Below are positions 10,267-50,930 of a stretch of 64,000 nucleotides of DNA, one piece after another; the first letter of the stretch is position 1; each line of letters opens with the position of its first letter. The DNA is taken from assembly GCA_000004985.1 (NCBI GenBank), contig GG738891.1, one strand, 5' to 3'. The position numbers were made by a program, and so were the translations under genes. Origin of the DNA: Naegleria gruberi. Taxonomy: Eukaryota. The notes beneath the pieces were generated by a model that ran no database searches, was not told where the DNA came from, and saw only the letters and a program-made list of their open reading frames with translations.

Positions 10267-12614
10267 ATGATGGGAACAATTTCCCTCCCAAGTTGTTTGG
10301 CGCCTCTCACCACTATGAAACAATCATTTAATAAAAAACAAATGAACAACACCACGACCACAAACCTGCTGACGACAAGCAACACTCCTGCTACAGCAAA
10401 TAGAAGTGAAGGAGTACAACAAATGAATACTTGTGGCCGAAGCAATACATCATCAACAATGCCAAGCAATATTCAACATGAATATACTATTGCTTCATCT
10501 CAAGTGCCAAATAATTATTCACGGGAATATACTTTTCTGAAAAACAATTCTAGGAGCAACTCTTCTGCACAGGAAATTAGTTCTTCTATTCAAGGACCAT
10601 TCTCTGAAACAATGTCAATTAAAACTGAGAAGATAGCAGCTGGGATATCAGAAAGAGCAAATGTTTCTCCATTTTCTGAAAGTAAGCCAATAATTGCTTC
10701 TTCATGTATTGAAACATTTACAAATCCATACCATACTCCTTTACTGGGTACGCAATCAATGATCGAGCCTTGTGTACCAATAAGAAAGCTTCCAAACCTT
10801 ACCATAAATGTAAACAATAATAGTAGCACTGCTGTCCTTGCATCAGCTGGTTCACATTCTGCTAAACCAAATCAAACTTCACCTCCTCCACCTTCCAATT
10901 TTCCAACAATTCCATTACTTCCAGCCAATTTCACAACAACTACCACTTTAAGTAGTGGTACTTGCACATCAGTGCTTGGCAACTGTGGACCAATTCCATT
11001 TTCCTTTTCAAAGCCAACTAGTTCATTTGCAGAATTAGGAGAAATCATTTCTCAAGGTAACTTTGGAATACCTAATTCCTCAACCTATTGTAATGATACC
11101 ATTAGTTGCAATTCTACTACTAGCTCTACTTTTGAAGAACCTAAGAAAGTCAAGAATAGAAAAGAAAAATCACTCACCATGATTTGCAGCAAGTTTATCC
11201 AATACTATGAAGAAAAGGCTAATAGCCCAACAACTAGCGCTCAATCAAAGGGTGACATTAAGATTGAAGAAGCTGTTAACACACTAGGTATTGAAAAGAG
11301 AAGAATTTATGATATTTTAAATGTCCTCGAAAGTATTTCTATTGTAACAAAAGTTGGTGTTTCATGCTATAAATTCAATGGAACAAAGTGCCTCAACGCT
11401 ACTCTTGAACAAATGAAAAACAGTGCTTTCGTAGATCCACTCCTTTTTGAAGGTATTCAATCACTCCCAAAAAATCCACAAAACGAACCAATTATTAAGA
11501 GTTTATCAAAGTTTAAACAATCATCTATGACTCATACTTCAAGATCGAACACATTGACATCATTGAGCAGGCTCTTGATTATGTGTTTCTTGGCAACTGA
11601 AGTTAAAGAAATTACACAAGATCAACTTTTGGCCATTGTGCTAAAAGATTCTACCGAAAAGAGTAAGTTGTCAAAGAAATTTTATTCTAATTATGATAAT
11701 TAATAGCGAGAACAAGAAGATTAAATGATATTGTAAACATTTTATCTGCCATTCACTTACTTGAAAAGAAAACTGAAAAGAGTGTTAATGTTTTCAAGTG
11801 GCTTGGTGGATCTTACGCAAATGAAAACAAACCAGTCAGTTCTATCATATCTCCTTCTAAAATGCCTCTGAAAAAGAGAAAGAGAGTTAAGGCTGGATCA
11901 CAAGGATCAGATAACGAAACATCTCCATTAACCATTGAAGGTGGTCCTTCTTTTTCTATTGTTGATATACCACAACCTGAAAATTCAAAGAACGAAATTT
12001 CTGAAATTAGTCCAGTGCCAATCTCTACAGTTTCTCCATCATTTTTCCAAAGCAGTACAACCACTTGTAAAACTCCAACATCTAGTGGTAGCAACAGCAG
12101 TGGTGGTCTTCATTTTCAATTCAGATCGCCACCAAGTAAGAAGAATAAGACCATTCCACTTTCTTCATTCACAACTGTTTTGGGAGGCGCACCAAAGATT
12201 TCTCCAAAGAACTTGAATGAAATCTTCAAGTCAAGCGAGCAACCAATTACGAATAATTCAAATATTCCTGTCCAAAGCCCAACCATTCCAAATGCTGGTA
12301 TTACCACAACATTTGGTAAATTGGGCTCTGGAAGCATTTTTTCACAAACTTCTGGTCAAGTTTCACCTCGAGTAATGCCTTCAGCTATTAAGGCAACCAT
12401 TTTCAACGAAAATAATAAGGAAAATGTCTGTAAGCCAACAGTTTCTCAAACTACAAAGAAACCATTATCACCTAACGACAATGCACAACAAGGTAAAATC
12501 ACTTTCAAGATTCGTGGTACCAATGAAACAACTTTAGCTCCAAGACAACCACTTGGTCTTAAAACAGACAATGGCGTTAATAATCAACAAAATATTAAAT
12601 CTCCAAGACCTTAA
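10267..12614 (+). CDS. Atypical E2F-family transcription factor (E2F7/E2F8/DEL-like) with two winged-helix DNA-binding domains
   Basis: join(10267..11662,11707..12614); 44-nt intron gtaagt..tag in phase 1 fuses track ORFs 10267..11703 and 11862..12614. DBD1 is KSLTMICSKFIQYYEE...IKIEEAVNTLGIEKRRIYDILNVLESISIVTKVG. DBD2 spans the intron: ...TRTRRLNDIVNILSAIHLLEKKTEKSVNVFKWLGG. The N-terminus and tail are long Ser/Thr/Asn-rich low-complexity regions. Confidence 0.65.
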
Positions 12615-12630
12615 ATTTTCTAAAATAGTT

Positions 12631-14906
12631 TTATTTATTCAACAGCTTCATTAATCGTTCAGAATCTACTACAGATGCATCTTTTTCAAGTTTCTTTTTA
12701 CAAGTAAGGTAGGCACGTTCAGCTTGTGCAACAATATTGTTCAGCTCTATGGCTCCAGAAAGATCAATGCATGCCTTCAAAATATCATCAAATCTATACT
12801 TTTGTGTGACAACCTCGTTTCTAATTTTTTGTAACATGGCGTAACAGATGAAAAGATGGAAGTGGTTTCCATATATTCCAGTCCATAACTTTTCCCACAT
12901 ATTTTTGCATGATTCAAAATCAAACTCTCTTTTCAACTCCACTAACACCCATCTGAAACAGAAATACAAGTTAAGTGCATCAACAGATTGTAAGTGACGG
13001 TAGAATTCAGGATCAAGTAATTTGATCAAAGAAACCAATGACACTAATTGATCTTCCATTCCTTGAGAATTCATCTCAAAGTTACTTTGTCTAGTTTCCA
13101 TTATACAAGCAAAACACCAGAATGATTCTACTTCATCTTTCATAATTTCTAACATAATACTGGCATAATCTCCCATTCCTTGTACATAACTCAAATCAAA
13201 ATTGTAGAAAGTGTATGTCAACAGGATGTCATGTAACATAACCAACCATTCACTATCATCACTAGCATACATTGGATGAGTTCTGTCTGTTCTAATAACA
13301 TCCTTTTCTATTCTGCTCTTTCTGTCTCTATAAAGAGCAAATCTAGATTCTTGAATGGTAGAAATTGTTGTCCATTGAGATTTATAACCATAGTATTCCT
13401 TTCTCTTTTCCTCGAGCAGAACTTCTCTTTCACTATAGGTCGAGTTATGAGGATAAAATCCTAACAAGAATTTCCAAACTTCCTTTCTTATACTATTTTC
13501 AACTCCTCCATAGTAAATTTTTTCCTTAAGAGCTTGGAAATCCTTAATTCTACCTTCCTCATCAAAGTATGTCTTCCAAGATTCAGCAGTGATTGGAGTA
13601 TCCATTCTTGGAGTCCAACCAATATCTTCTGGTGATTCAATTTTAGGCTTTTGTTGTTGTACATCTATAACTTTGACTGGTTCAATATCGTTGAAATAAT
13701 CATCTACTTCCTTGTTTTCCTCTGGCAAATAATTATCATATATTGATTCCTTAAGAGATTCTCTTATTATAGGTGGTGGAACTTTCTTCTTGTCCTCTAA
13801 TTAACGATTAAGATCAAATGATATAATTTAACAAAAAACATACCTTCCATCTTTTGCCTTACTTTGAGTAAACTCATAGCAAGATTTTCCGAGCCTCCAA
13901 CTTTGTTATCTACTGAAAGTTCATCTGATTGATTGAATAGTGCACTTGTTAAATCTCTAGCTCCTTTTGTAATTTTACTTCCCCACTCCAAGATTTGCCA
14001 GTATCCATCCTTCTCCTTATACATATCATCAAAATAGTCATCAAAATTAAATTGGTTGATGGTTTTTGATGCTTCTGATGACTCTGCAGAAATGTAGTAA
14101 ATATTCTGATCTTTACTACTCTTTTTCAATGTCACTTGTCTATTAAATTCTGAAATGAAATCTACCAATCCACCATCATGGAAAAACAATGGAGGATAAG
14201 TTGTTTCATCTCTCATTGTGATTAAAAGAAAATGATATCCTAATTTTGGAGTTTGTTTTTTGAAATGAGAAATATCTACTGTTCTCACAACCAATGCGTA
14301 TGCTGATTCATTTCTTTGAACAAATGGGCTATTATTTTGACTTATATCTACAATACTTCCTTGTGATGGACTACTTGCTAAATTTGAGTTTGGAACTCTA
14401 TGAGAATATCTATCAGGTGTTACAATTTCTCCATTAGATCTTTCATGTAAAACTAAATCGCTATTAAAAGTACAAAGTGTTGAATATGGACACCAAACTA
14501 CATAATAACAAGATCTTAAAACTGGTTGTACATTAGATGTTTCAACAATAAGAGATTTAGCTGTCATTACACTTCTACCAGTATTTTCTGTAGTTTTTTC
14601 AGTCAAATCCCTCACTAAAAACATAGCACCAGGAATTTGGTCAACAATATCCGAACCTTTTTGATTTGTTGTTTGAATAGAAGTGTGGATATAGATATCA
14701 TCCTTTCTCACTACAATTGAATACTTTGAAGATGCTAAATTTTGAGAAGAAAGCAATTCCCTAATATTGGGAGTATCTCCTCTCACATAGAATGAACTTC
14801 CGAATGTTGAATCTGAATTAAAAACTACTTGTGGTGATCCTTCTTCACTTTCATCATCTGATGATTCATGATGATAAATCAAAACACTATTATTTAAATC
14901 ATCCAT
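12631..14906 (-). CDS. TBC-domain Rab GTPase-activating protein (TBC1D15/TBC1D17/Gyp7-like)
   Basis: join(complement 13844..14906, 12631..13796); 47-nt intron (gtatgt..ttag) in phase 1 joins track ORFs 13797..14924 and 12631..13728. The N-terminal exon resembles the TBC1D15 N-terminal domain. The C-terminal exon has the Arg-finger IRTDRTHP and Gln-finger YVQGMGDY of the TBC domain. The real ATG is at 14906; the track start is a TTG. Confidence 0.75.
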
Positions 14907-17146: not shown

Positions 17147-17895
17147 GGATCAATTAAATGGAACTCAATTCTGTAATTCAATAACAAAGAATATTTGTGA
17201 CAAATTTTGTGATCTATTCAGAAAGGACATTCAAAATACATCAGTTAGAAAGGCATTCAAAGCATTCAAACCTCACTTGAATGTAATTTATAGAGATGTT
17301 ATTCTTTCAATAGGTAAACAATTGATTTATGATTGTACATGTTGTGATGCAAAGGTTGGATGGTTACACATATTTAACATTAAAAATTGCCCCAATATCT
17401 TTACTCCAATAGAGGTTCAAATAGTGGAACAGAAACCAACCAAGAAAAATTCCAAGAGGTAAGTGCATACTAAAAATTAGAGATCTAATACTAGATAGTA
17501 AGAATACAGTACAAAATATTGAAATGGCAAACACCTTTACCAAAGAACTTTCCCATTTTCAATGGATAATTGAATTAGAGAATGATCAACCACAAGTAGT
17601 TATTCTAGTCAATGATTTTCTAAATGCCTTTGTAAAAATTTGTAAAATATTCCCAGAAATACCCAACTTTACCAAAGTACGAGCCAAAACAGCTCCATCA
17701 AACACTTTTCAAGAGTGTTACATAATGAAATTTAACAATACTTTTGCCTGTCTACCAATAACAATAGATGCAGGAAATATTGATATAGAATCAGATATCC
17801 AATCAATTGTAAATATTCACTTGGAACGAATTGATAAATTTTTGGAAACTATACAAACAGAACTATCCCCACAAATAACCAATATTAAACTATAG
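17076..17895 (+). CDS. Cys-rich hypothetical protein segment: start-less exon plus a downstream exon (possibly the C-terminal part of the preceding LRR gene)
   Basis: Frame open from 17076; the track starts it at a TTG (17130). There is no ATG or internal Met in the 128 codons before a canonical 40-nt intron (17459..17498, gtaagt..atag), which splices in phase into track ORF 17524..17895 (MANTFTKELSHFQWIIELEND...). Contains a CxxC-rich segment (CNSITKNICDKFCDLF ... DCTCCDAKVGW). Confidence 0.4.
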
Positions 17896-17935
17896 ATCTG
17901 TCATGATAAGAAGATCAGTAATGATATATATAGTT

Positions 17936-18505
17936 TTACATCTTTGAATCAAAAGGTCCATTATGAATTCTAAGTCCAGTCTTTAGACAATTCAAATAAT
18001 ATCCATAAAATAAATCTTTACAGTTTTCATGTGTAAGCATGACATTTGCTGGATTAAACTCTTTAGCTCCCAAATTCATTAATTTGAAACATTTTTCATA
18101 CAATTTATAATGTAAATTGCATTTTCTAGTATTTGAAGCTGTTGCTGCTGCAAGATAATGCCTCCTATAAATACAATCACCATAATCCTTTGATATCTTT
18201 AAACAATCTTTATCATAATTAATTTCTTGATTATTCTGAAAACAATTTTTTAATTCATTATGTTCTAGAGAACAAACTAATCCACTAAATTTAAATGCAA
18301 ATGTATCCAATGTATCAAGTTGAACTCTGTAGAGTATTTCTCTCGGAATTTGTTTTTCATCTACTGGTCCAGCAGAGAATAATTCTCCCGATTCATAGTT
18401 GGGCATTTTTTTATTTGGTTTTTTAATTATTTGTTTTATTACTTTATTTTCACAACAAGTGAAAGTACTATAATATAATTCATTGAAAAAGTTACTGTAT
18501 TGCAT
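17936..18505 (-). CDS. Hypothetical Cys-containing protein (189 aa)
   Basis: ATG-initiated single ORF with no recognisable domain. The composition is not low-complexity. Confidence 0.4.
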   Translation of the reverse strand: MQYSNFFNELYYSTFTCCENKVIKQIIKKPNKKMPNYESGELFSAGPVDEKQIPREILYRVQLDTLDTFAFKFSGLVCSLEHNELKNCFQNNQEINYDKDCLKISKDYGDCIYRRHYLAAATASNTRKCNLHYKLYEKCFKLMNLGAKEFNPANVMLTHENCKDLFYGYYLNCLKTGLRIHNGPFDSKM

Positions 18506-18851: not shown

Positions 18852-21633
18852 TTAAATAATAGGATTTTCTTTTAGAAATTTTCTGATAGAATCATATTCT
18901 CCTTTCGGGTGGGGTAAAACATCATCAAACTGATCAAAACTTAGGGTATATATAGTTCTTGGACCAGTTTGTTCAAGTGTTATTTCCTTCTCCCAATCTT
19001 CTTTTACATACAAATCCATAATTGATGGTCTTTGTTTTATCTCCTTCAAATGCTTCTTGCTAACTTGCTTTTTCAATTTCGTTTCAACAATATCATAATT
19101 CTTTTCGGCAACATCTTGTTTTTCTACTATATTTCCAAACATTGATTCACCAGGTGTATAGTTGAGTACCTTCTCTGCATCATTCTTGTTGAATAGACTG
19201 TTCTCTTTCAGTACTTGTCTAGCAGTTTGTTCATTAAATTCTTCGGATTGTTTTTGATGAAGTTTATACTCAATTCTTCTCGATGAATTGGGTATTATTG
19301 CTGGTGTATGTTGTGGAATGTCATACTCTGGTTCTGTATTCTGGGTTGGTTCAGTTTCAGCATCAGAGAAATGGTTGACTATCTTTACCTGATTAGAGGA
19401 TGATGATTTCTTCAGTGAGCTAGGTTTTGGCTTCTTTGGCACTAGAACCTCAATTTGAAGATTGGAACCTGAGTTGACTCTTGTTGTTTCTGGTTTGATA
19501 CGTTTTCTGAGTGGCTTACTAGCGTTAACTGGGGATTGAGATGCAATGACATCATCAATGATAACAGGCTTGGGGATTTCTTTCTCTCTTCGTATGACTG
19601 GCTTTGGAAGACTCTCAGTTATCTGTGGAGTTTGAATAAGCTCTTCATCTAGGGAAGGAGATTGTTTGTTAAATTCTGGAAGGGAATGAGTTTTGAGAAT
19701 GGGAGATGATTGTTTGGGCGGGGATTTCGTTTTTCTAATTTTGATAACCTGTGGCTCAGGAGTTAACATGTCTCTGTTTCTATCAATATCATTAAGGTCA
19801 ATACGATCGTCTTGAGGTTTGTTTGGAGTAAATTCTTGGCTCCATAGCATTTGGTCCATCGTTTGTGGTATTGTGGGATCCATATTGTCAGTAGATGGAC
19901 TTTTAGTTGGCTTTGGTACATTTCTAATCTCCCTTGGTAACGATATTGAGGATAAACTACTCATTACTGAGGTAACATCAGACAGCAGATCTTCATCAGA
20001 TGAATAATCGATAGTGTTAGGTTGTTGTTCTTCTTCTGTTAGCTCCTGTGCATGATCCTTCTCTTCGTGAGGGGAATAATATGACTGCATTTGTTTTGGA
20101 ACACTTTGTGGCCTAGGAGTTTCCAATGAAAAGCTCATGTTTTGATAAGACTCTTCTGGTTGCTCTGGTTGTTCGAGAGGGTATTCATCATAGTGATTTT
20201 CTTGTTGGTCTTTCTTGATAATTTGACTTATTATTTCATCAATCAGCCAAACATGACCCCTTCCATCCTTATCACAAGCTACCAAATGAGATCCTGGAAG
20301 TGGAATGGAGCTTTTTACATTAATACGATTGTCTTTCTTCATGCTAAATACTGTACAAAATAAAATAGGAGTTTCAAAACTATACTCCATTACCAAGAGT
20401 TGACCAATATAGAATTGCATTGAATTTGAAATAATCCTGTTATTCTTATCCCTGAATGAAACGGAAAACACGTTTACCATATCATTATTCATGAAAAAGC
20501 AAGTTACTGAATTCACAGTTATATTCTTTTAAAAGTCAATAAGTGAAATGAGAGTTTACATACAGGTTGATCTGAAATAATATAGTATGCTATTTGTAAA
20601 TTTAGTACTGTCTTTGAGTAAACGTCTTCAGACTCCTCATACAGATAAACTGTTCCTAGTTGATTACAAGCAATTAAAGATGACGAAGGCAAGAAGTCCC
20701 TCATTAGAGATAATGGACTCGATTCTAAAATGATTTGTTGAAGTAATTGTTGGTTTTCTATGTCGTGTCTGATTTACAATTAGATGAAAATTATTCCTTA
20801 ATTAAAACCTACATTAATAAAATTCCATCTTGTCCACCTCCACTCACTATAAATGGGTTCTTTGAGTAGCCACTTGTTGGTATTACAATGGCCACTTTTT
20901 GAAGAAATTGTTTTTTGTGTACACCTTTCAAAGACCAGGCCAATTCAAAAGACTCGTCTTGATTCATTTCAACACTCTCCTCTCTATGAATCCATACTTT
21001 TAAATCTCCATTAATTGATCCAGTTACTAAATAATTATTCTCCATGTCAAAACAAGTGATTTGATCTTGATGTTGAGCACATCCAAATACATGGGTCGAT
21101 CTGGCAAATAAACTATCATTCTCATAATATGTTTTTCCAAAGTGTACCACAGAGTAGAACATTTTGTTTGAATTTTGCTGTAAAAAGCAAATTTTGTATG
21201 CTGGACATCCATGATAGCATGGAGGCTCATCTTCCTCATTCTCAAATAAAATCCTTGATTTATAAGTCCTAGGTGTTGATAATTGATTATTAGAAATGAA
21301 TTTGAACTGTTTCCATGGTGTATTCAGAGGAATGATATCACCTTCTGATTCTACAAACAATTTGTAAATTGCATATTCATTTTGTTGTATGTTGAAAAGT
21401 CTAATTATTAGACAAGGTCACTCTCTACAACTGCAAACAAATACTCACTTTAAATAACCCTTATTATCCGATATACCAATAACTTCATCTTCAGTATGAA
21501 GAGATGGTACTTGATAGATTGTTGTAGTATAATCCTTAGTTGATGCATCCTCTGCATACCGATCCAGATAAAAATCCTCATCAATCCTTGCCAATCTAAA
21601 GCCAACCTGTTGTTCACTGCTTGTTTTCTGCAT
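18852..21633 (-). CDS. WD40-repeat protein with a long acidic/Pro/Ser-rich C-terminal tail; 4 exons
   Basis: join(complement 21449..21633, 20813..21400, 20564..20768, 18852..20525); introns of 48, 44 and 38 nt (gtgagt..ttag, gtaggt..tcag, gtatgt..aaag), all phase-consistent. They join track ORFs 21445..21666, 20809..21360, 20519..20704 and 18852..20516, whose track starts are GTG/TTG. WD-like blocks include ITCFDMENNYLVTGSINGDLKVWI, FIVSGGGQDGILLIHD, IACNQLGTVYLYE and LVACDKDGRGHVWLID. Confidence 0.6.
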
Positions 21634-21658
21634 TTTTTCTTTTTTTAAACTTAAAAAT
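21634..21658. promoter_or_regulatory. 25-bp spacer between the divergent start codons of the WD40 gene (-) and the GET1/WRB-like gene (+)
   Basis: ATG of the minus-strand gene is at 21633..21631; ATG of the plus-strand gene is at 21659..21661. 5'UTRs and promoters must overlap. Confidence 0.4.
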
Positions 21659-22204
21659 ATGAGCACAACATTATCTGCTTCGGAACTGAATCAAAAGAAT
21701 GAAACATTAATATTGAATATAATAATAGTAATATTGATTGCTAAAATTTTGAATATTATTTGGAAAAAGCTTATTCATGATAGATTAATTAATGGAACGG
21801 CTCGGAAATTGGAAAGGGAAATTGCTCTCCTTCAAAAGAGTAGCATTGCTCTTAACACACCTTCAAAGTTTGTAGAATATTCCAAGACTCAAAGAAGATG
21901 GAAAAAGAGAGAAAAGTTATTATCGGAAATTAAGAATACGTCATCTTATCGAGTTAAGATTGTTATTTCCTATGTCATACAATATGCACTTTCTCTAGGA
22001 GCACCTATTTGTTGCACTTTGTTGTGGTATGGGGAGAAGATTTCCACACTGGCCAGACCAGACTTTTGTTGTTTATCCAGAGGAGAATCATTGTGTTTGC
22101 CACAATTAATTTGTAGTGAGAGTGGATTTCAAATTGTTACTACATCATTTGTAATACTCACAATGAAGAGTTTGGATTATCTCAGTTCCATTCTGTTCAA
22201 ATAA
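21659..22204 (+). CDS. GET1/WRB-like tail-anchored protein insertion receptor subunit
   Basis: 181 aa. N-terminal TM (LILNIIIVILIAKILNII), a coiled-coil segment (ARKLEREIALLQKSSIALNTPSKFVEYSKTQRRWKKREKLLSE), then two further hydrophobic helices (RVKIVISYVIQYALSLGAPICCTLLWYG). This architecture matches Get1/WRB. Confidence 0.5.
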   Translation: MSTTLSASELNQKNETLILNIIIVILIAKILNIIWKKLIHDRLINGTARKLEREIALLQKSSIALNTPSKFVEYSKTQRRWKKREKLLSEIKNTSSYRVKIVISYVIQYALSLGAPICCTLLWYGEKISTLARPDFCCLSRGESLCLPQLICSESGFQIVTTSFVILTMKSLDYLSSILFK

Positions 22205-22293
22205 ATTCATGATTTAAAATGCTATCACTGTTTGCAACATCATTGGATTCAAGGAATTGATTTAAATAATTTTTGGAGTTTTATTCAACAAAT

Positions 22294-22575
22294 TTAGTTT
22301 TGCTTGTTGTTAACGGCAGCCTTTGGGGTGCTTCCGACCTTCCATCCGTTTCTTTCTCTTCTCAAAGCGAGCTTCAAATAACGACATCTACCAGTACCAG
22401 TGGTGTTTCTTCTAATAGCCTTATAAGCCCATTGGTACTTTCTGATCTTTGGTGATGGGAATCCGCAAGAAGCACAAGTCTTCTTTTGAATATGGTAAGA
22501 TCTTCTATCACATCTTGGACACATACCGTGTGTCTTGGTGTGTCTCAAACCGAATGATTGGGTACCCTTGGTCAT
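22294..22575 (-). CDS. rpl37: 60S ribosomal protein L37 (eL37)
   Basis: [68 protein letters not shown]... with the C4 zinc-ribbon motif. A probable 42-nt 5'UTR intron (plus 22579..22620, gtaagt..ttag) ends 2 nt before the ATG. Confidence 0.85.
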
Positions 22576-23001
22576 TTCTAATTTATTGATGAATAATGCA
22601 ACTACGAGGGCAATACTTACTTTTCTAGTGACGTTTTTTTTTTCAACAAATTTTCAGGTTGATAGAAATTTTGGGTTGGTATTCTTTACAATGAAACTTT
22701 TTTGCTGGTAAAATGTAACTGGAAAAAATGTTGATGCTTTGCTAGCGTTAGTGCACGGAGTATCAATCATCAATTATTCATACTCATATTAGTACATAGA
22801 TGATTATTATATAGAGATTGAATCATCATTATTGAACAAAATATATTAAATAAATATAATTTTTCTCATCAAACTTATAATATTCGGAAGATGGTAATCT
22901 AGGAAGACCATCACTGAACAGAATTTATTCTCAAGACTTGGTAATGAACATTATCATTGAAGAAGAAGTAATTGATAATTTAATAATAAAACAATTAAAA
23001 A

Positions 23002-24135
23002 ATGAGTCATCTCGATCAAAGGAAGAGGAAATACAATGATGATGAGGACGATAATTCTCCATCCACAGACACACAACTCATGATCAGAGCAGACAGTCAT
23101 GAACAAGATGAAAAGAGGAGAAAATTAACATCTTTAATGGAATTACCTCCACGTTCGTCATCGCTTTCAGCACCAATTTTAAAACTTGATGGACACAAAT
23201 CCGAAGTATTTACTTGTAAATTTTCGAATAGTGGAAATTTTCTTGCTACAGGTTCAGCAGATAAATCAGTTTTATTGTGGGATGTTTTCGGAGAGAGTGC
23301 CAAGAGTGAAGATGATGACTTATCATCAACCACTGTGAATTATGGTAGCTTATTGGGACATAAGAATGCTGTATTGGATTTGGATTGGTTTACATCAGAG
23401 GATCGTATTTGTACAGCTTCAGCTGATAATACTGTCATCTTGTGGGATATTATCAAATGTCTTAAAGTGAGACAATTTAAACAACATTCATCAATTGTAA
23501 ATTCTTGTTCAACATCAAAATATTCAAAACAATCGGATCTATTTGTATCAGCAGGTGATGATAGAGCCATCAATATTTATGACCAAAGAGAAAGAAAATG
23601 TATAAAAACAATCAAGAGCAAATATCCAGTCTTCTCGGCATGCTTTTCAGAAAATAATGATAGATTATTCACATGTGGAATTGATAGTGTCATTACTACA
23701 TGGGATTTGAAAACTGATAAATTCATTTACAACCTAGGCAGTGGGCACACTGATTCAATTACAGATATCAAGCTTTCACCTGATGGTAATTTCCTCCTAA
23801 GTAATTCTATGGATGGCACATGTCGTGTTTGGGATTGTAGACATTATGCCGAATCTGCCAATAGATGTGTAAAATTATTTAATGGAGCTAAACATTCAAT
23901 GGATAAGAATCTAGTTCGTGTTGCATGGTATAAGGATAGCTCATTGATTTCAACAGGTGCCGAAAATGATGTCATGATTTGGAATACCACTACAAGAAAG
24001 ATTGAATATCAATTACCTGGACATCATGGTTCTGTAAATTGTGTTCATTTCCATCCTCAACAACCAATTATTGCCTCAGCTTCAAGTGACAAGACTGTTT
24101 ATTTGGGTGAAATTGATTCAAAATCTATTTATTAA
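23002..24135 (+). CDS. snrnp40: U5 snRNP 40 kDa WD40 protein (SNRNP40/PRP8-binding protein)
   Basis: 377-aa single exon. Collinear similarity to SNRNP40 throughout (LDGHKSEVFTCKFSNSGNFLATGSADKSVLLWDVFG ... LPGHHGSVNCVHFHPQQPIIASASSDKTVYLGEI). Seven WD repeats. Confidence 0.85.
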   Translation: MSHLDQRKRKYNDDEDDNSPSTDTQLMIRADSHEQDEKRRKLTSLMELPPRSSSLSAPILKLDGHKSEVFTCKFSNSGNFLATGSADKSVLLWDVFGESAKSEDDDLSSTTVNYGSLLGHKNAVLDLDWFTSEDRICTASADNTVILWDIIKCLKVRQFKQHSSIVNSCSTSKYSKQSDLFVSAGDDRAINIYDQRERKCIKTIKSKYPVFSACFSENNDRLFTCGIDSVITTWDLKTDKFIYNLGSGHTDSITDIKLSPDGNFLLSNSMDGTCRVWDCRHYAESANRCVKLFNGAKHSMDKNLVRVAWYKDSSLISTGAENDVMIWNTTTRKIEYQLPGHHGSVNCVHFHPQQPIIASASSDKTVYLGEIDSKSIY

Positions 24136-25597
24136 ATAATAATTTTTCAATTTTGGCCAATCTTGCTTCTAAAACAGCTTTATCCTTATACAGATAAAGT
24201 TCATTAAAATCTTCAGCCTTCTTCTTTACCAGAGTTGACTTCTTGGGTGTTGCCTGTTGTAATTTGTTGCTGACATTGTTCACAATTTCACTTTCAGCAA
24301 GACTTTGACTCTTTTTCAACAATATTTGTTCCTCTCTTTTCACATTTTCCTTAAAGGTCTCTCTTGGAACCATCATAATATTATTGACAATAAAATCAAC
24401 CATTACATCCATCTTTAAAAAGTTTTCACTATTAATCCATTCATAATTTGTTTCATCTTTTCTGAACCATGTATTTTGATGTTTGGAATATCTTCTGGTG
24501 GAAACTTTGAATTCTCTCAAAAATCTCAAGAAGGATTTCTTTAAAGCTGATTTGAAAAAGTGATCCCTCCTATCAACAGTTTTCATATAATTAATGAAAT
24601 CATAAGCTTCCTTATAACCAATTGATCTGAATGGAACTGTATGATCTAGTAATATTCCTCGATCCATTAAACTGTATACTTCTTCTAAAAGTCCAGCTTC
24701 CACTAAATTTTCACATCTCCTTTCCAAACTTGCATAGAGTTTATATCTGTCTAAATAGAGAACAATTCCACGAACATCTAAATTATTTTCAGATACTTTA
24801 TCCATAAATCCATTCTTATACTTGAATTCTTTCATTGTTTTTCCAGATTCAGTCACAATAGTATAAGCTCTATTCAATCTATATAAATCATTTCTGTGAA
24901 TTTTTGATGCATATTCTGGATCTTTTTCTTGTAAAACTTTATATCTTCTATCCCATTCATCAGTTGAAACTCGTGTTAAATCATCCATTTTTTGAACAGA
25001 AAGAGTAGTTGGTTGTGGAATTTCCAAATTAGTTCCATCAATGAATGTATTCAAGTAAAAAGCACTTCCTCCAACGAGTATTGGCAATTTTCCTCTCGCC
25101 AGAATTTCCAAACACTTTTCATGAGCATCAACATAAAATTGTTGAACTGTATATTGATGAGTTTTATCGTGTGCACATTTTTCCAATGAAACATTATTAA
25201 CTAAATGATGAGAAATTCCTTGCATTTCCTCTTCTTTAATTTTGTTACTTCCGATAGAACATTCCTTATACATTTGAACAGAATCTACATTAATAATTTC
25301 TCCATTCAATCTTTTAGCAATTTCAATAGAAATTGGTGTTTTACCTGTACCTGTTGCTCCTGTTATTATAAAAACTTGATTTTTCAATTCTTTTGCAATA
25401 TTATTAGTATGATTATTGTTACTATCCATTGTTGTTGTATTATTAATAGTTGTTGTTGTTGATGAATAATTAAATTTAATAATAGGAGCAACATTTTGAA
25501 TCAGTAGTGATTTGATAAATCCTCTTCGGAGCATTGCATTATTACATGATGGTGGACCACCAAACAACAATTTCAATCCTTGTTGTTGTTTGAACAT
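24125..25597 (-). CDS. tRNA dimethylallyltransferase (tRNA isopentenyltransferase, MiaA/Mod5/TRIT1 family), probable organellar presequence
   Basis: 490 aa. P-loop IITGATGTGKTPISIEIAKRLNGEIINVDSVQMYKECSIGSNKI and downstream IPT core (LPILVGGSAFYLNTFIDG). The 3' end overlaps the SNRNP40 CDS by 11 bp (24125..24135, convergent). Confidence 0.85.
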   Translation of the reverse strand: MFKQQQGLKLLFGGPPSCNNAMLRRGFIKSLLIQNVAPIIKFNYSSTTTTINNTTTMDSNNNHTNNIAKELKNQVFIITGATGTGKTPISIEIAKRLNGEIINVDSVQMYKECSIGSNKIKEEEMQGISHHLVNNVSLEKCAHDKTHQYTVQQFYVDAHEKCLEILARGKLPILVGGSAFYLNTFIDGTNLEIPQPTTLSVQKMDDLTRVSTDEWDRRYKVLQEKDPEYASKIHRNDLYRLNRAYTIVTESGKTMKEFKYKNGFMDKVSENNLDVRGIVLYLDRYKLYASLERRCENLVEAGLLEEVYSLMDRGILLDHTVPFRSIGYKEAYDFINYMKTVDRRDHFFKSALKKSFLRFLREFKVSTRRYSKHQNTWFRKDETNYEWINSENFLKMDVMVDFIVNNIMMVPRETFKENVKREEQILLKKSQSLAESEIVNNVSNKLQQATPKKSTLVKKKAEDFNELYLYKDKAVLEARLAKIEKLLFNK

Positions 25598-30453: not shown

Positions 30454-30984
30454 ATGCAATCAAATCCTATTGAAACTCACCAAAATACTTCATCAAATAT
30501 TAAACAATACTTTGAAAATTGGAGGAAATTAATCAAATCTAATCCAGTTGTTACCGCTCAAGTAATAATCATTGCTATCATGTTGATACTTTTTATAATA
30601 TCAACATTCGGACAAAGTGAAAGAGATATCAGTTCTGCTACATGTTTATTGGCTGTCAAGTTTGTTTTACCATTCTTTTCGTGTATATTTTGTTTGGCTA
30701 GGAGTAAGCTCTTGGTAGGAGTGATGGCCTTCCTTTCATTAATCTCACTCACTGCAGGAAGTTTATGTGCATTCTTGATCATGTATCCATTCCATGGTAA
30801 GGTTGTGGAAGACCCATTAATTAGTGGTCCTGCTTGGGGAATTATGGGATTTGAAGTCGTTTCATTTTCTTGTCAAATTGTAATGATTTTCTGGATTAGG
30901 TCCATTGAAAAGACACCTAGTGAAACAATGAGTATTCCACAACAAGAACAAGTACAACTTAATGACGAAGAAGATCAAGTTTAA
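30454..30984 (+). CDS. Small polytopic membrane protein (about 4 TM), hypothetical
   Basis: 176 aa with four hydrophobic helices and an acidic C-terminus. Its stop is 1 bp from the stop of the convergent gene at 30986. Confidence 0.45.
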   Translation: MQSNPIETHQNTSSNIKQYFENWRKLIKSNPVVTAQVIIIAIMLILFIISTFGQSERDISSATCLLAVKFVLPFFSCIFCLARSKLLVGVMAFLSLISLTAGSLCAFLIMYPFHGKVVEDPLISGPAWGIMGFEVVSFSCQIVMIFWIRSIEKTPSETMSIPQQEQVQLNDEEDQV

Positions 30985-30985
30985 T

Positions 30986-32887
30986 TTACTTTTTAGGTTT
31001 TTCTTTTCTAATAAACTCAATAGTATTTTCACTATCCTCACAATTTGAATAAGTTTCTAAATATTTCAGAGAGGGCATTAGTTTCTTAAGAGAAGGTAGA
31101 TTTAAATCATTAGACCTCCAAAAGAATGTTTTTAAACATAAATATTCCACATTACTGAATACACCAGAATTAGGAACATCGATCATAAATAATTTCTTGG
31201 AATCAATAATTCCAACTAATTGAACTGAACGAAGTTCCAATTCTTCTACATGATCTGGAATATTCATTTCAATGGAAGTGTTTTTAGCAGCCTGTAAGGC
31301 CAAATTGTTAATAGATTTCATTCGCTTTAACATTTTCTCAACCTGAGCTGACTTTAGGGATGTTTTTGTAAAATTGTTAATTTTTAAAATGTGAAGATTT
31401 GGAAATGTTGAAGGATCTAAAATATCTAATAATGTTTTTGATAAGTTAATTTTTGTAAAAGTTATTCCTCTAACACACTCAGAAAGTGAATTCAAGATGG
31501 TGGCGACGAAATCTGGACTACAATCTTCTAATGTTACGTATTCAACAACTTTCAAAACCTGATCAAGAATTTTCTTATCTGGAAGACCTTCATTCTTTTT
31601 AAAGTTTTTGCATGTGATTTCTTTCAAGCATTGATTTGTTGAAGGCAATTTCTTAAGGCAGTCATAACCAATTGATTCTCCATTCACAATCATAGAAACC
31701 AAGTTTGGTACATATTTGATCATTGAGTCATGATTAACATAGGCCCTCTTTACAAATGGGCAATCTAATTTTACAATTACTGTAACATGCTCTAAATCTA
31801 TTAAATCCCAAGCCATAGTAGGTTCCTTTACATTCAGTACAGCAATATCATTTAGACCTAAACTTGAAAGTTGTTTAGAATCAATGCTTAAATTTTCTGA
31901 TCTAAAAACAGTACATTTCTCCAAAGTTGGGCACTGAATCACTATATTGGAAAAGTCACTTATATGTAAGCTTGTGATAGTTGGGTGGGATATTGTAATC
32001 TCTTTGGTTTTTTTGTGATGGGATGTTATACAAAGATGTGTAAGGGTTGGAAACTGCTTCAAAGCACTTGATGCCTTGGAGAATACATTGAGTATGAAAG
32101 GACTTGAATGACAGCTCAATGATTTTAACTTGTCAAAAACAGTATCTGTTCTCTCGAATATCGTACAGTAAGCCGAAATGTCATCCTTTTCTGGGGCAGC
32201 ATTTTTTGAGTGATCAAGGGGTATGGCCTTTGCCTTAATGTTATGCTTGTTTACCATATTTTCAATACCTGGAATTCTGGTATAAGTTTTGATTGCATCA
32301 ATTCTAAATGTAATGTACTTTTCAAAAAAAATCATTTCACTTTTAACATCAATTGGATATTCATAATGAACAAGTGCTTGTGGCAATTCACTCGCTTGTT
32401 TCCACAATTTGCAAACTCTATTAATTTGAACAAATTCCTTAACTGGAAGGTATGAAAATATGATAGCCCATATTTCTGGAATATCAAGTTTAAAAAGAAA
32501 GTAACTATCCTGAGAGGGATTAATTGTTCGAATAGAATTGGACGTCATGAACATGTCTGCTTGCATTACAGAAACCAAAAACTCATCAGTCACTTGTTTC
32601 AAATGTTTAACAATATTAATTGACAATTCTTTTTGTTTCAAATTAGTTTCATCAGAAAAGAGCCTTCGGAGAGAGTCTTCATCCTTTAATTTCTTGACTG
32701 TCTGTGCCATCCATTGAACAAAATCATCCGATGATGTCTCACACTCAATCAAAACTTGATCACTATTCTTCTCTTTAATTTCTTCATCAGTACTTGATGA
32801 TTGTTTCACCTTTTTTACTTCTACTTCACAAGCAGAATCTGCTTCCGTAATCTTTCTCTTACTGGCCACTTTTTTGTGTGGTGGCAT
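30986..32887 (-). CDS. F-box / leucine-rich-repeat protein
   Basis: 633 aa. F-box LDIPEIWAIIFSYLPVKEFVQINRVCKLWKQASELP, followed by degenerate LRRs. Confidence 0.6.
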   Translation of the reverse strand: MPPHKKVASKRKITEADSACEVEVKKVKQSSSTDEEIKEKNSDQVLIECETSSDDFVQWMAQTVKKLKDEDSLRRLFSDETNLKQKELSINIVKHLKQVTDEFLVSVMQADMFMTSNSIRTINPSQDSYFLFKLDIPEIWAIIFSYLPVKEFVQINRVCKLWKQASELPQALVHYEYPIDVKSEMIFFEKYITFRIDAIKTYTRIPGIENMVNKHNIKAKAIPLDHSKNAAPEKDDISAYCTIFERTDTVFDKLKSLSCHSSPFILNVFSKASSALKQFPTLTHLCITSHHKKTKEITISHPTITSLHISDFSNIVIQCPTLEKCTVFRSENLSIDSKQLSSLGLNDIAVLNVKEPTMAWDLIDLEHVTVIVKLDCPFVKRAYVNHDSMIKYVPNLVSMIVNGESIGYDCLKKLPSTNQCLKEITCKNFKKNEGLPDKKILDQVLKVVEYVTLEDCSPDFVATILNSLSECVRGITFTKINLSKTLLDILDPSTFPNLHILKINNFTKTSLKSAQVEKMLKRMKSINNLALQAAKNTSIEMNIPDHVEELELRSVQLVGIIDSKKLFMIDVPNSGVFSNVEYLCLKTFFWRSNDLNLPSLKKLMPSLKYLETYSNCEDSENTIEFIRKEKPKK

Positions 32888-34744: not shown

Positions 34745-36508
34745 ATGCAACAATCTAGTCGGAGATTAATCTCCAAATTACGAGCATCACCTTCACTACT
34801 TCGGAGGAAAACAAATAATATTTCTTTATCATCAAATTATTCTTCTTCTTTTCATCGATCCATTATTAAACAAAATACTAATAATAATAGCAATAATACT
34901 GTGGAAATAATTAATGAAGAAAAGGCTAAAGAACCTATTAAACTTCTTCAAAGAACAATTTCCTATCCAATTTATGAATCATTAGAATTTAATGATAAAA
35001 CTCATCTAGTCTATCAAAAGGAATTTAAATTATTGGAATCAAAATCTTTAAATTTAGAAATTAATACACGTAATATGAATGTAGAAATTTGTAATTATCA
35101 AGATGATGATAGTGATTCTATTAAAATTGAAATATATACACATAATTGTAATCCATATTCATGGTATGATTTAAATAATACACCACAAGGCTTCTTCTCC
35201 GATTATAAAATTGAACATTTATTTAGAGATTTAACAAATACATTGAGAATTAATGTTCATCAAGCACCAGTTCCTTCTCTTTTCTATAGACATAAATTAT
35301 TTAATCAAACTATTGATAATGTATTTCTTCCTAATGAAGTTTCTAAATTTATTGAAAGTAGAACTAAATTTACAACAATGAAAGTTTATTTACCTAAAGA
35401 AAATAATTCAATTAAAGTTGAAACTGATATTGGAAATATTATATTTAGAAATTTGAAAAATTTAAATGAATGTTTTGTAAAATCATCATTTGGATCATTA
35501 TATATTGATAAAGATGGCATTGATAATGTAAAAAAATTTAATTTGGAAATGTTATATGGATCTTGCTTTATTAAGAAAGTATCTAATGTGGAAAATTTGA
35601 AAATTAATCATTTATTTTCACTTATAGATCATTTTGGACGTGGAGCTGGAATTTTAGCATCAAATTCAATTACATTAGATAATATTGATTCAAATTCTAA
35701 TGTAAATATTCATACAATAGATCCAATAGATATATTTGTTAATCAGATTAGTCTTACAAATAATAATACTCTATCAATTTCATGTAGAACTAAAGATGGT
35801 ACTTTATTTACGTATACTTCAAATGGAATTCAAGTTTTTGTATCTGATGAAGTCAATTCAGGCACAAATTCAAAACTTAAAATATTCTCAGATTCTAATC
35901 CAATTACTTGCTATTTTGATAAGAATTCTGTTGTAAATTATAAAGTACAGGCTGTTTCACAAAGAAGTGATGTCTCAGTAGATTACAACAATATAATATT
36001 TGATGGAAGTGATGTTGTGAATAGTGTGAATGGAACAATTGTTAGTAGAAAAGATACTAAACGATTACATCTTCTCAATCAATCAATAATTGATTCTCCT
36101 CAAGAAGAAAATATTGATACTACTGCTACTGATTTATCCTCATTAACTGAATGCCCAATTGGTGGTGATGTATCAATGACTTGTAGACATTCACAAATTC
36201 ACATTAAACAATATGAATATCTTTTATTGGGTGATGGTGAACAAGGTGCTGATTCTGATTTGAGTACAAGACGATTACTCTATCAGAAACAAAGTACCTC
36301 AGAGTATTATATTGAACTTTTGGATTATAGAATTGCAAAGAGAGATGCTTTTGTTTACGTTTCCATAGCTGTTTTATTGATAATTTATGTTTCCATTATC
36401 AAATTTTATTCAATTCCAACATTTGAAAAGCAAGCTTGGTTGAACAATAGTGGAATGGCTTCAACGATGGGAAATCCAACTGAGGCTTTAAGACCAAACA
36501 CTAAATAA
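34745..36508 (+). CDS. Hypothetical protein with an Arg/Ser-rich N-terminus (possible organellar presequence) and a C-terminal transmembrane anchor
   Basis: 587-aa ATG-initiated ORF with Asn-rich low complexity near the N-terminus and a hydrophobic segment AFVYVSIAVLLIIYVSIIKFY near the C-terminus. No recognised domain. Confidence 0.45.
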   Translation: MQQSSRRLISKLRASPSLLRRKTNNISLSSNYSSSFHRSIIKQNTNNNSNNTVEIINEEKAKEPIKLLQRTISYPIYESLEFNDKTHLVYQKEFKLLESKSLNLEINTRNMNVEICNYQDDDSDSIKIEIYTHNCNPYSWYDLNNTPQGFFSDYKIEHLFRDLTNTLRINVHQAPVPSLFYRHKLFNQTIDNVFLPNEVSKFIESRTKFTTMKVYLPKENNSIKVETDIGNIIFRNLKNLNECFVKSSFGSLYIDKDGIDNVKKFNLEMLYGSCFIKKVSNVENLKINHLFSLIDHFGRGAGILASNSITLDNIDSNSNVNIHTIDPIDIFVNQISLTNNNTLSISCRTKDGTLFTYTSNGIQVFVSDEVNSGTNSKLKIFSDSNPITCYFDKNSVVNYKVQAVSQRSDVSVDYNNIIFDGSDVVNSVNGTIVSRKDTKRLHLLNQSIIDSPQEENIDTTATDLSSLTECPIGGDVSMTCRHSQIHIKQYEYLLLGDGEQGADSDLSTRRLLYQKQSTSEYYIELLDYRIAKRDAFVYVSIAVLLIIYVSIIKFYSIPTFEKQAWLNNSGMASTMGNPTEALRPNTK

Positions 36509-36525
36509 ATTAAATATTTAATTTC

Positions 36526-37176
36526 CTACTTGTTGAATAATGAATAGTAACAAATAATAATACATGTAAATACTGTAATAGAAAGTGTTACTAATTTAAC
36601 AATTTCAAAATCTTGTAAGTTTCCAACTGGTATATCTACTGATATTATTTGAGTATTTTCTGAATTGATAATATTAAATTCCTTTCCATCAATATAGAAA
36701 ATTGTTGGGATATTAATTTGCACAGTTGTGAAAGATTCAGTTGAGCTTGGAAATTGATATCTAAAATGTATTGGATATTTAAAAGTAACAGTGAATTCAT
36801 TTCCACTTTGTTTTACAATCTTTGACAATGTGACATTATGTTCAGTACTAGAATATGATGGTGCCTCAACATTGATATAATATTGATGTTTGGGTAAGAG
36901 AATTTCTTTCATATTATTAATTTCATAAATATCAATATAAATATCCTTTGATAATTTTTCCACATAGGAAATATTCATCAATTTACCAACAGCACTGTTC
37001 TCGGAATTATTTAATTTAATTCTAAATGTGCTAATTAATTCTCTGTGAAATCCTTGTTTTGTTAATTCCCTAGATATTAAAGATACTTCTTGTGTAGTAA
37101 CAAATTCTAGTTGTTGAATAAATAAAAGAGTGCCAATAATTAACATAATAGTGTTCCGAATAATCTTATTGTACAT
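36526..37176 (-). CDS. Type I membrane protein, possibly PIG-X/PBN1-like (GPI mannosyltransferase I accessory subunit)
   Basis: 216 aa. N-terminal signal/anchor (MLIIGTLLFIQQLEF), a C-terminal TM (IVKLVTLSITVFTCIIICYY) and a KYPIHFRYQFP segment resembling the PIG-X HxRY motif. Weak assignment. Confidence 0.35.
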   Translation of the reverse strand: MYNKIIRNTIMLIIGTLLFIQQLEFVTTQEVSLISRELTKQGFHRELISTFRIKLNNSENSAVGKLMNISYVEKLSKDIYIDIYEINNMKEILLPKHQYYINVEAPSYSSTEHNVTLSKIVKQSGNEFTVTFKYPIHFRYQFPSSTESFTTVQINIPTIFYIDGKEFNIINSENTQIISVDIPVGNLQDFEIVKLVTLSITVFTCIIICYYSLFNK

Positions 37177-50778: not shown

Positions 50779-50852
50779 TTTTTTTGTAGTGAAATGTGAC
50801 AGGAGTAAATAATTATCAAAGTAAAAAGTCAATTAAAACAGATGGGGAGGGC

Positions 50853-50857
50853 AAAAG
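50853..50857 (-). terminator. RNA polymerase III terminator T-run immediately 3' of the tRNA
   Basis: Minus-strand ...TGACTCCA|CTTTTG: a TTTT run begins 1 nt after the discriminator base. Confidence 0.45.
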
Positions 50858-50893
50858 TGGAGTCATAGGGAATCGAACCCTAGACCTTCTGCA

Positions 50894-50924
<31 letters not shown>

Positions 50925-50930
50925 AACCCC
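50858..50930 (-). tRNA. tRNA-Ala (anticodon UGC)
   Basis: Minus-strand sequence GGGGTTATAGCTCAGTTGGTAGAGCGTCTGCTTTGCATGCAGAAGGTCTAGGGTTCGATTCCCTATGACTCCA folds as a cloverleaf: 7-bp acceptor stem with the G3:U70 Ala identity pair, D arm GCTC/GAGC, anticodon stem TCTGC/GCAGA, loop TTTGCAT (anticodon TGC), T arm TAGGG/CCCTA with TTCGATT loop, discriminator A. A and B boxes are present. Confidence 0.9.

What the first reader, a model, noticed from the sequence alone, without database searches (positions are those of the whole stretch)
21449..21700. Head-to-head genes with start codons only 25 bp apart
The WD40 gene's first exon is spliced in-frame (via a GTGAGT..TTAG 48-nt intron) to the rest of the gene and starts at ATG 21633 on the minus strand. 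The GET1/WRB-like gene starts at ATG 21659 on the plus strand. With 25 bp between initiation codons, the two 5'UTRs and core promoters must overlap or be nearly nonexistent. This implies an unusual shared initiation region or antisense-overlapping transcripts.
Basis: seen in the sequence. Interest (0 to 1): 0.55.

Follow-up and report, generated by a model that had tools for sequence, protein, structure and literature searches.

The report
Two divergent Naegleria genes, 25 bp apart
Two real genes of the amoeba Naegleria gruberi, a WD-repeat protein gene and a GET1/WRB membrane-insertase homologue, point away from each other with only 25 A/T-rich bases between their start codons. This is an extreme but understandable case of genome compaction, and how transcription starts there is still untested.

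Summary
The minus-strand ATG is at 21633, the plus-strand ATG at 21659, and 25 bp (23 A/T) lie between them. A 48-nt GTGAGT..TTAG intron joins exon 1 in frame to exon 2.

The window is Naegleria gruberi. Both start codons hold up against orthologous loci:
- Exon 1, its ATG, and the intron position and phase are conserved in two other Naegleria-like taxa, with a coding pattern of substitution.
- The GET1-like ORF has no other ATG before its first membrane helix.

The same gene pair has a 28-bp spacer in one relative and 46 or 184 bp in another. The tight spacing is therefore long-lived but not obligatory.

Genes are tightly packed across the window. Convergent genes touch or overlap, and other divergent spacers run from 132 to about 1200 bp. 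About a quarter of the long ORFs carry a (T)TTAAAAA element directly against the ATG. The spacer is essentially two such A-rich leaders back to back.

Most likely this is a minimal bidirectional initiation region. It would give very short 5' UTRs, 5' ends that overlap in antisense, or both, and the upstream promoter sequence of each gene would lie inside the other's first exon. No transcript data were reachable, so this mechanism is inferred.

It is a new instance of a known kind, of modest interest. The reference annotation misses exon 1 and splits the WD gene.

The parts
21634..21658 (.). 25-bp spacer between the two start codons (TTTTTCTTTTTTTAAACTTAAAAAT). It is a T-run followed by an A-run on either strand, so each gene has an A-rich leader against its ATG. 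A palindromic TTTAAA sits at 21644-21649.
   Evidence: Identical in the 98%-identical strain contig L001.
21449..21633 (-). Exon 1 of the WD-repeat gene (ATG 21633; 61 codons plus 2 nt).
   Evidence: Conserved in L002 (ATG 4256) and L004 (ATG 785) with a coding substitution pattern.
21401..21448 (-). Intron 1, 48 nt, GTGAGT...TTAG, phase 2.
   Evidence: Same position and phase in L002 (58 nt) and L004 (45 nt).
20813..21400 (-). Exon 2 of the WD-repeat gene. It holds the one recognisable WD repeat.
20769..20812 (-). Intron 2, 44 nt, GTAGGT...TCAG.
20564..20768 (-). Exon 3.
20526..20563 (-). Intron 3, 38 nt, GTATGT...AAAAG. Preferred over a 53-nt alternative because it restores the conserved segment V-x-S-x-T-C-F-F-M.
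18852..20525 (-). Exon 4 with the stop codon. The whole protein is 883 aa.
   Evidence: The reference model P0003 (542 aa) covers only part of this exon.
21659..22204 (+). Single-exon GET1/WRB-like gene, 181 aa, identical to N. gruberi XP_002673352.1 / EFC40608.1.

Best explanation
This is a genuine head-to-head gene pair of Naegleria gruberi. An 883-aa WD-repeat protein gene (four exons, minus strand) and a GET1/WRB-type tail-anchored-protein insertase subunit (one exon, plus strand) have start codons separated by a 25-bp spacer that is 92% A/T.

The spacer is two short A-rich leaders placed back to back, one against each ATG. They are of the (T)TTAAAAA-ATG type found at many start codons in this genome.

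Shown: both start codons are real, the arrangement is old, and the surrounding genome is tightly packed.

Inferred: the region works as a minimal bidirectional initiation region. Transcription of each gene would start in or just beside the spacer, giving 5' UTRs of about 5-25 nt, possibly with a few bases of antisense overlap. Whatever upstream core-promoter sequence each gene needs would lie inside the first coding exon of the other. It is the extreme end of genome compaction, not a separate mechanism.
For: Organism and gene identity:
- The GET1-like protein is identical to N. gruberi XP_002673352.1.

Start codons:
- The WD exon 1, its ATG and the phase-2 intron are conserved in L002 and L004, with third-position-biased substitution.
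- GET1 has no alternative ATG before TM1.
- Its N-terminus aligns with the orthologues.

Persistence:
- L004 has the same pair with a 28-bp spacer.
- L002 has 46 bp (ATG 4209) or, more likely, 184 bp (ATG 4071).
- The three taxa are roughly equidistant, at 54-60% amino-acid identity in the WD domain.

Compaction:
- Convergent ORFs overlap by 11 bp or lie 1-17 bp apart.
- A more distant GET1 homologue sits 64 bp head-to-head with a GTPase gene.

Leader element:
- TTAAAAA lies within 19 nt upstream of 11 of 47 long-ORF ATGs, against 19 of 2593 other ATGs (p = 7e-13).
- Upstream ATGs are depleted only within about 20 nt of start codons.
- The WD gene has an upstream ATG at -38.

Precedent:
- In Giardia, AT-rich initiators sit next to the ATG, 5' UTRs are about 3-25 nt, intergenic spacers are 30-177 bp, and a 153-bp head-to-head spacer drives both genes (PMC1885649).
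Against: - No transcription start site data for Naegleria could be reached. Exact-protein look-ups returned only genomic contigs, and the literature searches found no TSS or UTR measurements.
- The A-rich element may be only a translation-context preference and say nothing about where transcription starts.
- The upstream-ATG test rests on 31 genes and is weak.
- GET1 has no upstream ATG for 116 nt, so a long leader overlapping WD exon 1 is equally possible.
- L002 probably manages with 184 bp, and L005 lacks the pairing, so the tight spacing has no demonstrated function.
- Third-position identity in exon 1 is near background, so there is no sign of a conserved promoter element embedded there.
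Confidence: 0.6

Rival explanations
1. Antisense-overlapping 5' ends. Each gene starts transcription tens to about 100 nt inside the other's first exon, so the two mRNAs share a complementary 5' segment and have ordinary-length leaders. The spacer itself is not an initiation site.
For: - The plus strand has no ATG for 116 nt upstream of the GET1 start, so a long leader would be tolerated.
- AT-rich, TATA-like sequence lies in the TM1-coding part of GET1, about 60-90 nt upstream of the WD ATG.
- Overlapping transcription is well known in compacted eukaryotic genomes such as microsporidia and nucleomorphs (my own knowledge: Williams et al. 2005 PNAS).
Against: - A WD leader longer than 38 nt would carry an upstream ATG with a 6-codon uORF.
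- Window-wide, upstream ATGs return to background density beyond about 20 nt, which suggests leaders are generally short.
- There is no conserved synonymous-site signal in exon 1.
Confidence: 0.28
2. Gene-model artefact. One of the two start codons is not used, for example because WD exon 1 is not really part of the gene as the reference annotation implies. The true spacing would then be hundreds of bp.
For: The NCBI/JGI annotation has no model over exon 1. It offers only a 117-aa fragment (P0008) and a 542-aa C-terminal model (P0003).
Against: - Exon 1 is conserved in three taxa with a coding substitution pattern.
- The ATG lies 4-10 codons before the first conserved residue in all three.
- The intron position and phase are conserved.
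- There is no in-frame ATG in exon 2 before residue about 142.
- GET1 TM1 starts at codon 17 with no other ATG.
- The three four-exon models are colinear over 814-883 aa.
Confidence: 0.05
3. Functionally coupled pair. The tight spacing is selected because the two genes must be co-regulated from one shared element.
For: The pairing, and in two of three taxa the spacing of 28 bp or less, has survived divergence to about 55% amino-acid identity.
Against: - No functional link between a generic WD-repeat protein and GET1 is evident.
- The spacer sequence is not conserved beyond the A-runs.
- L002 probably has 184 bp between the genes.
- In L005 and L006, GET1 has other neighbours.
Confidence: 0.07

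Closest known systems
Giardia lamblia compact bidirectional promoters with AT-rich initiators (Teodorovic et al. 2007, PMC1885649)
   Same: An AT-rich element lies directly next to the start codon. Leaders are very short (about 3-25 nt), intergenic spacers are tens of bp, and head-to-head genes are driven from one short spacer (153 bp for ran/phd).
   Different: In Giardia the start sites and bidirectionality were mapped by 5' RACE and reporters. Here nothing is mapped. Naegleria is a free-living heterolobosean with introns and, as far as I recall, a genome of about 41 Mb. The 25-bp spacer is much shorter than the documented Giardia head-to-head case.
Overlapping transcription in compacted eukaryotic genomes: microsporidia and nucleomorphs (Williams et al. 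2005 PNAS; my own knowledge, title seen cited)
   Same: Intergenic regions are too short to hold UTRs and promoters, so transcripts begin or end inside neighbouring genes.
   Different: Those genomes are extremely reduced and belong to parasites or endosymbionts. N. gruberi is not reduced, and most of its divergent spacers in this window are 130-450 bp.
Bidirectional (head-to-head) promoters of yeast and mammals
   Same: Two divergent protein-coding genes share one short promoter region, and the arrangement tends to be conserved.
   Different: Those are defined by TSS-to-TSS distances of up to 1 kb, with separate core promoters in a nucleosome-depleted region of 100 bp or more. Here even the ATG-to-ATG distance is 25 bp, less than the footprint of one pre-initiation complex.
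GET1/WRB (Pfam PF04420 CHD5; PDB 6SO5 chain C)
   Same: The plus-strand gene product has the same layout: a short N-terminal tail, TM1, a long coiled-coil hairpin with the F-x-x-Y-A/S-K-x-x-R motif, then TM2 and TM3. WRB is its best solved match by sequence.
   Different: It is very divergent. The direct Pfam score is below the curated cut-off, and a cysteine-rich loop between TM2 and TM3 is specific to the Naegleria-like proteins.

Membership tests
GET1/WRB (Pfam PF04420, CHD5-like) | Match to PF04420 at or above the gathering score (29.3 bits) | tested here: inconclusive
   The window protein scores 17.9 bits (E = 0.0028), the L002 orthologue 18.8 bits and P0010 22.3 bits, all below the cut-off. 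PF04420 is nevertheless the top family for every homologue. Two homologues retrieved by phmmer with the window protein pass the cut-off: P0013 at 32.6 bits and P0014 at 45.5 bits.
GET1/WRB (Pfam PF04420, CHD5-like) | Three transmembrane helices with a long cytosolic coiled-coil hairpin between TM1 and TM2 | tested here: met
   The AlphaFold2 model has mean pLDDT 81, with helices 7-44, 46-64, 68-93, 95-122 and 161-180. Hydropathy peaks centre at about residues 22-31, 108-113 and 160.
GET1/WRB (Pfam PF04420, CHD5-like) | Closest solved relatives are Get1/WRB | tested here: inconclusive
   A profile search of PDB sequences returned only WRB/GET1 chains (6so5_C E = 0.0067; 8cr2_C and 8cr1_C E = 0.016). 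In Foldseek, five of the top eight hits were TMCO1, WRB or Get1, but with E = 0.28-2.1 and TM-scores of 0.29-0.36.
GET1/WRB (Pfam PF04420, CHD5-like) | Binds Get3/TRC40 and pairs with Get2/CAML | not testable with these tools
   This needs biochemistry.
Bidirectional (head-to-head) promoter gene pair | Two protein-coding genes on opposite strands with adjacent 5' ends | tested here: met
   ATG 21633 (-) and ATG 21659 (+), both supported by orthologues.
Bidirectional (head-to-head) promoter gene pair | Both transcription start sites map to the shared region, and one fragment drives both genes | not testable with these tools
   No transcript or 5'-end data were reachable.
Bidirectional (head-to-head) promoter gene pair | Arrangement conserved between species | tested here: met
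   The same pair occurs in L002 (46 or 184 bp) and L004 (28 bp). It is not kept in the more distant L005 and L006.
Giardia-type AT-rich initiator with minimal 5' UTR | AT-rich element positioned against the start codon, genome-wide | tested here: met
   TTAAAAA lies within 19 nt upstream of 11 of 47 long-ORF ATGs against 19 of 2593 other ATGs, p = 7e-13.
Giardia-type AT-rich initiator with minimal 5' UTR | Transcription starts inside that element | not testable with these tools
   There is only an indirect hint: upstream ATGs are depleted no further than about 20 nt from start codons.
WD40-repeat beta-propeller protein | Pfam PF00400 at or above 27 bits, or several recognisable repeats | tested here: inconclusive
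   One repeat (residues 170-198) scores 24 bits, E = 5.5e-5, below the cut-off. All three orthologues match it. PDB profile hits to WD40 proteins reach E = 5e-7 for FBXW7 and 4e-6 for a nucleoporin chain (6lk8_C), mostly through that single repeat.

The most novel reading that the evidence does not exclude
Naegleria RNA polymerase II promoters may be reducible to an element of about 10 bp, (T)TTAAAAA, sitting on the start codon. Two such elements in opposite orientation within 25-28 bp would then form a complete bidirectional promoter, kept since the divergence of Naegleria lineages. That would give near-leaderless mRNAs in a free-living, intron-containing eukaryote, and a region shorter than the footprint of a single pre-initiation complex would launch two genes.
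Probability: 0.2. Interest if true: 0.55.

Novelty: new member of a known kind. Interest (0 to 1): 0.3.

Why it matters
If the start sites really lie within the 25 bp, this locus is a ready-made natural test case for the smallest functional bidirectional Pol II promoter. It would also bear on how scanning ribosomes handle leaders of only a few nucleotides outside the parasitic protists where this has been studied.

There is also a practical point. The reference N. gruberi annotation misses exon 1 and splits this gene into fragments. Annotation-based statistics on intergenic distances in this genome therefore hide such cases.

Tried and rejected
- Two scans of metagenome contigs, one with the WD exon-2 alignment and one with the GET1 alignment, found no further orthologous loci.
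- Exact-protein look-ups for the GET1-like and L37e proteins returned only one genomic metagenome contig and no transcript assemblies, so 5' ends could not be read.
- Literature searches on Naegleria UTRs, intergenic distances, transcription start sites, initiator elements and bidirectional promoters gave no measurements. The 2010 genome paper is not held.
- An Rfam scan of 20500-23000 found no RNA family.
- The inverted-repeat search found only short AT-rich matches in the TM1-coding region, plus a 13-nt, 85% pair (21559-21571 / 21671-21683) that is not centred on the spacer. I treat these as chance.
- My first model of intron 3 (53 nt, GTAAAC donor) was rejected in favour of a 38-nt GTATGT...AAAAG intron, because only that one restores the segment conserved in L002 and L003/L004.
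- The 243-aa ORF of L002 (ATG 4209) is probably over-extended. The extra 46 residues have no counterpart in four homologues and lack the A-rich context that ATG 4071 has. This remains unproven.
- I looked for a specific orthologue identity for the WD protein and found only generic WD40 matches.
Full report
**What is at the coordinates.**
- An ATG lies at 21633-21631 on the minus strand and an ATG at 21659-21661 on the plus strand.
- Between them lie 25 bp, TTTTTCTTTTTTTAAACTTAAAAAT, of which 23 are A/T.
- The minus-strand ORF runs 185 nt to 21449.
- A 48-nt intron (GTGAGT...TTAG, 21448-21401, phase 2) follows and joins it in frame to the ORF 20809-21360.

**Organism.** The plus-strand 181-aa protein is identical to Naegleria gruberi XP_002673352.1 / EFC40608.1, 'predicted protein' NAEGRDRAFT_71597. 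The window is therefore N. gruberi nuclear DNA, about 31% G+C.

**Are both start codons real?**

The WD-repeat gene:
- ATG 21633 is the first in-frame ATG after an in-frame TGA.
- The next in-frame Met is about 140 codons downstream.
- I recovered two orthologous loci from other Naegleria-like organisms: L002 (Logan SRR29240419, 15.5 kb) and L004 (ENA ERZ27315067, 8 kb). L003 is a shorter contig of the same taxon as L004.
- In both, exon 1 is present, starts with ATG 4-10 codons before the first conserved residue, and ends at an intron in the same position and phase.
- Pairwise codon comparison gives 64-82% identity at positions 1 and 2 against 35-40% at position 3 (Fisher p = 1e-4 to 8e-8). 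This is the signature of a translated exon.
- All three species give colinear four-exon proteins of 883, 853 and 814 aa.

The GET1-like gene:
- The first transmembrane helix begins at codon 17, and there is no other ATG before residue 168.
- Its N-terminus aligns with the orthologues.

The 'wrong start' rival is therefore unlikely.

**Gene identities.**

The plus-strand protein:
- It matches Pfam CHD5 (the Get1/WRB family) only below the cut-off (17.9 bits against 29.3).
- A full HMMER search of 1.8 billion proteins retrieved seven proteins. Apart from P0001, the near-identical copy of the query, CHD5 is the best Pfam family for all of them, and two of them pass the cut-off.
- A two-sequence profile against PDB sequences returned only WRB/GET1 chains.
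- An AlphaFold2 model (pLDDT 81) shows TM1, a long helical hairpin, TM2 and TM3.
- Its best Foldseek matches include TMCO1, WRB and Get1, though with non-significant E-values.
- 'GET1/WRB-like' is a fair name.

The minus-strand protein has one clear WD repeat and generic beta-propeller matches, with no specific orthologue.

**Conservation of the arrangement.**
- In L004 the same two genes are head to head with 28 bp between the ATGs (756 and 785), and again there is no alternative start.
- In L002 the spacer is 46 bp if ATG 4209 is used. It is 184 bp if the start is ATG 4071, which I favour. The extra 46 residues have no counterpart in four homologues, and 4071 has the A-rich context while 4209 does not.
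- The three taxa are about equally distant from one another, at 54-60% identity in the WD domain and 46% in GET1. The direction of change cannot be inferred, but a spacer under 30 bp has persisted in at least two deep lineages.
- In the more distant L005, GET1 follows a PIG-X gene in the same orientation and the WD gene is absent.
- In L006, a GET1 homologue lies 64 bp head to head with an Arf/Ras GTPase gene.
- Between the window and a 98%-identical strain (L001) the spacer is unchanged. At that divergence 25 bp carries no information.

**Context in the window.**
- Convergent ORFs overlap by 11 bp (24125-24135) or lie 1, 16 and 17 bp apart. 3' ends therefore routinely overlap.
- The other divergent ATG-ATG spacers are 132, 322, 426, 453 and 1223 bp, plus three of roughly 335-400 bp.
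- 25 bp is the minimum of a continuous distribution.

**A recurrent start-codon element.**
- Upstream regions of 31 confident starts show A at 60-70% of positions -1 to -5. Many also show an explicit (T)TTAAAAA(A)ATG.
- TTAAAAA lies within 19 nt upstream of 11 of 47 long-ORF ATGs but only 19 of 2593 other ATGs (odds ratio 41, p = 7e-13).
- Both genes of the pair have it: GTTTAAAAAAAGAAAAAATG for the WD gene and CTTAAAAATATG for GET1.
- The L004 spacer likewise begins with a T-run and ends with an A-run on either strand.
- The spacer is thus essentially two A-rich leaders back to back, sharing a central palindromic TTTAAA.
- Upstream-ATG density is reduced only within about 20 nt of start codons (5 observed against about 10 expected) and is at background beyond that. 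This weakly suggests that leaders are usually short.

**Mechanism.** What follows necessarily is that the combined 5' UTRs cannot exceed 25 nt without overlapping. Any core-promoter sequence more than a few bases upstream of either start site lies in the other gene's coding exon.

What I infer is a minimal bidirectional initiation region with very short leaders. This resembles Giardia, where AT-rich initiators sit next to the ATG, leaders are about 3-25 nt, and short spacers drive divergent genes (PMC1885649).

The main rival is that each transcript starts inside the other's exon, as in the overlapping transcription known from microsporidia and nucleomorphs (my own knowledge). The WD gene would acquire a 6-codon uORF if its leader exceeded 38 nt, which argues mildly against this. 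GET1 has no upstream ATG for 116 nt, which permits it. Only 5'-end mapping can decide.

**Novelty and interest.** Head-to-head genes sharing very short spacers are a known consequence of genome compaction. This is a new and fairly extreme instance in a free-living heterolobosean, with some evolutionary persistence. It is worth a look in RNA-seq data but does not change the field. A useful by-product concerns the reference annotation, which lacks exon 1 and splits the gene into a 117-aa fragment and a 542-aa C-terminal model. The tight spacing is therefore invisible in that annotation.

Noticed in passing
window 18852-21633 (-): The reference N. gruberi annotation splits this gene into a 117-aa fragment (P0008, part of exon 2) and a 542-aa model (P0003, exon 4 from MVNVF). 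Exon 1, most of exon 2 and exon 3 are unannotated. A four-exon, 883-aa model is colinear with orthologues in L002 and L004. Its introns are 48, 44 and 38 nt.
   Followed up: yes
window-wide; e.g. upstream of ATGs at 24125-25597(-), 33020, 34745, 36526-37176(-), 45458, 54749, 57076-57546(-): A (T)TTAAAAA(A) element directly abuts many start codons: 11 of 47 long-ORF ATGs against 19 of 2593 other ATGs, p = 7e-13. It could be an initiator or a translation-context signal. I found no description of it for Naegleria in the searched literature.
   Followed up: partly
window 24125-24135; 30984-30986; 12614-12631; 36508-36526; 17895-17936: Convergent ORF pairs overlap by 11 bp or are separated by only 1-40 bp, so 3' UTRs and terminators of opposite-strand genes must overlap routinely.
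   Followed up: no
window 50857-50930 (-): A tRNA-Ala (TGC) gene sits inside the divergent spacer between ORFs 49858-50832 (-) and 51184-52521 (+).
   Followed up: no
window, inside ORF 51184-52521 (+): A run of N (an assembly gap, translated as X) interrupts an ORF whose C-terminal part looks tubulin-like.
   Followed up: no
L006 7936-8001 (GCA_026419775.2): A distant GET1 homologue (P0011) lies head to head with an Arf/Ras-type GTPase gene, with 64 bp between the annotated start codons. This is another short divergent spacer in a related lineage.
   Followed up: partly
window 22576-23001 versus L001: The 426-bp divergent spacer between the L37e gene and the SNRNP40-like WD40 gene carries several indels of 7-19 bp between two 98%-identical strains. 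The stretch 21623-21949, which includes the 25-bp spacer, has no differences.
   Followed up: no
window 21659-22204; L002, L004, L005 orthologues: The Naegleria-type GET1 proteins share a cysteine-rich loop between TM2 and TM3 (CC-L...C-x-P-x-x-x-C) that is absent from WRB and Get1. In the model it is low-confidence (pLDDT about 56-64).
   Followed up: no
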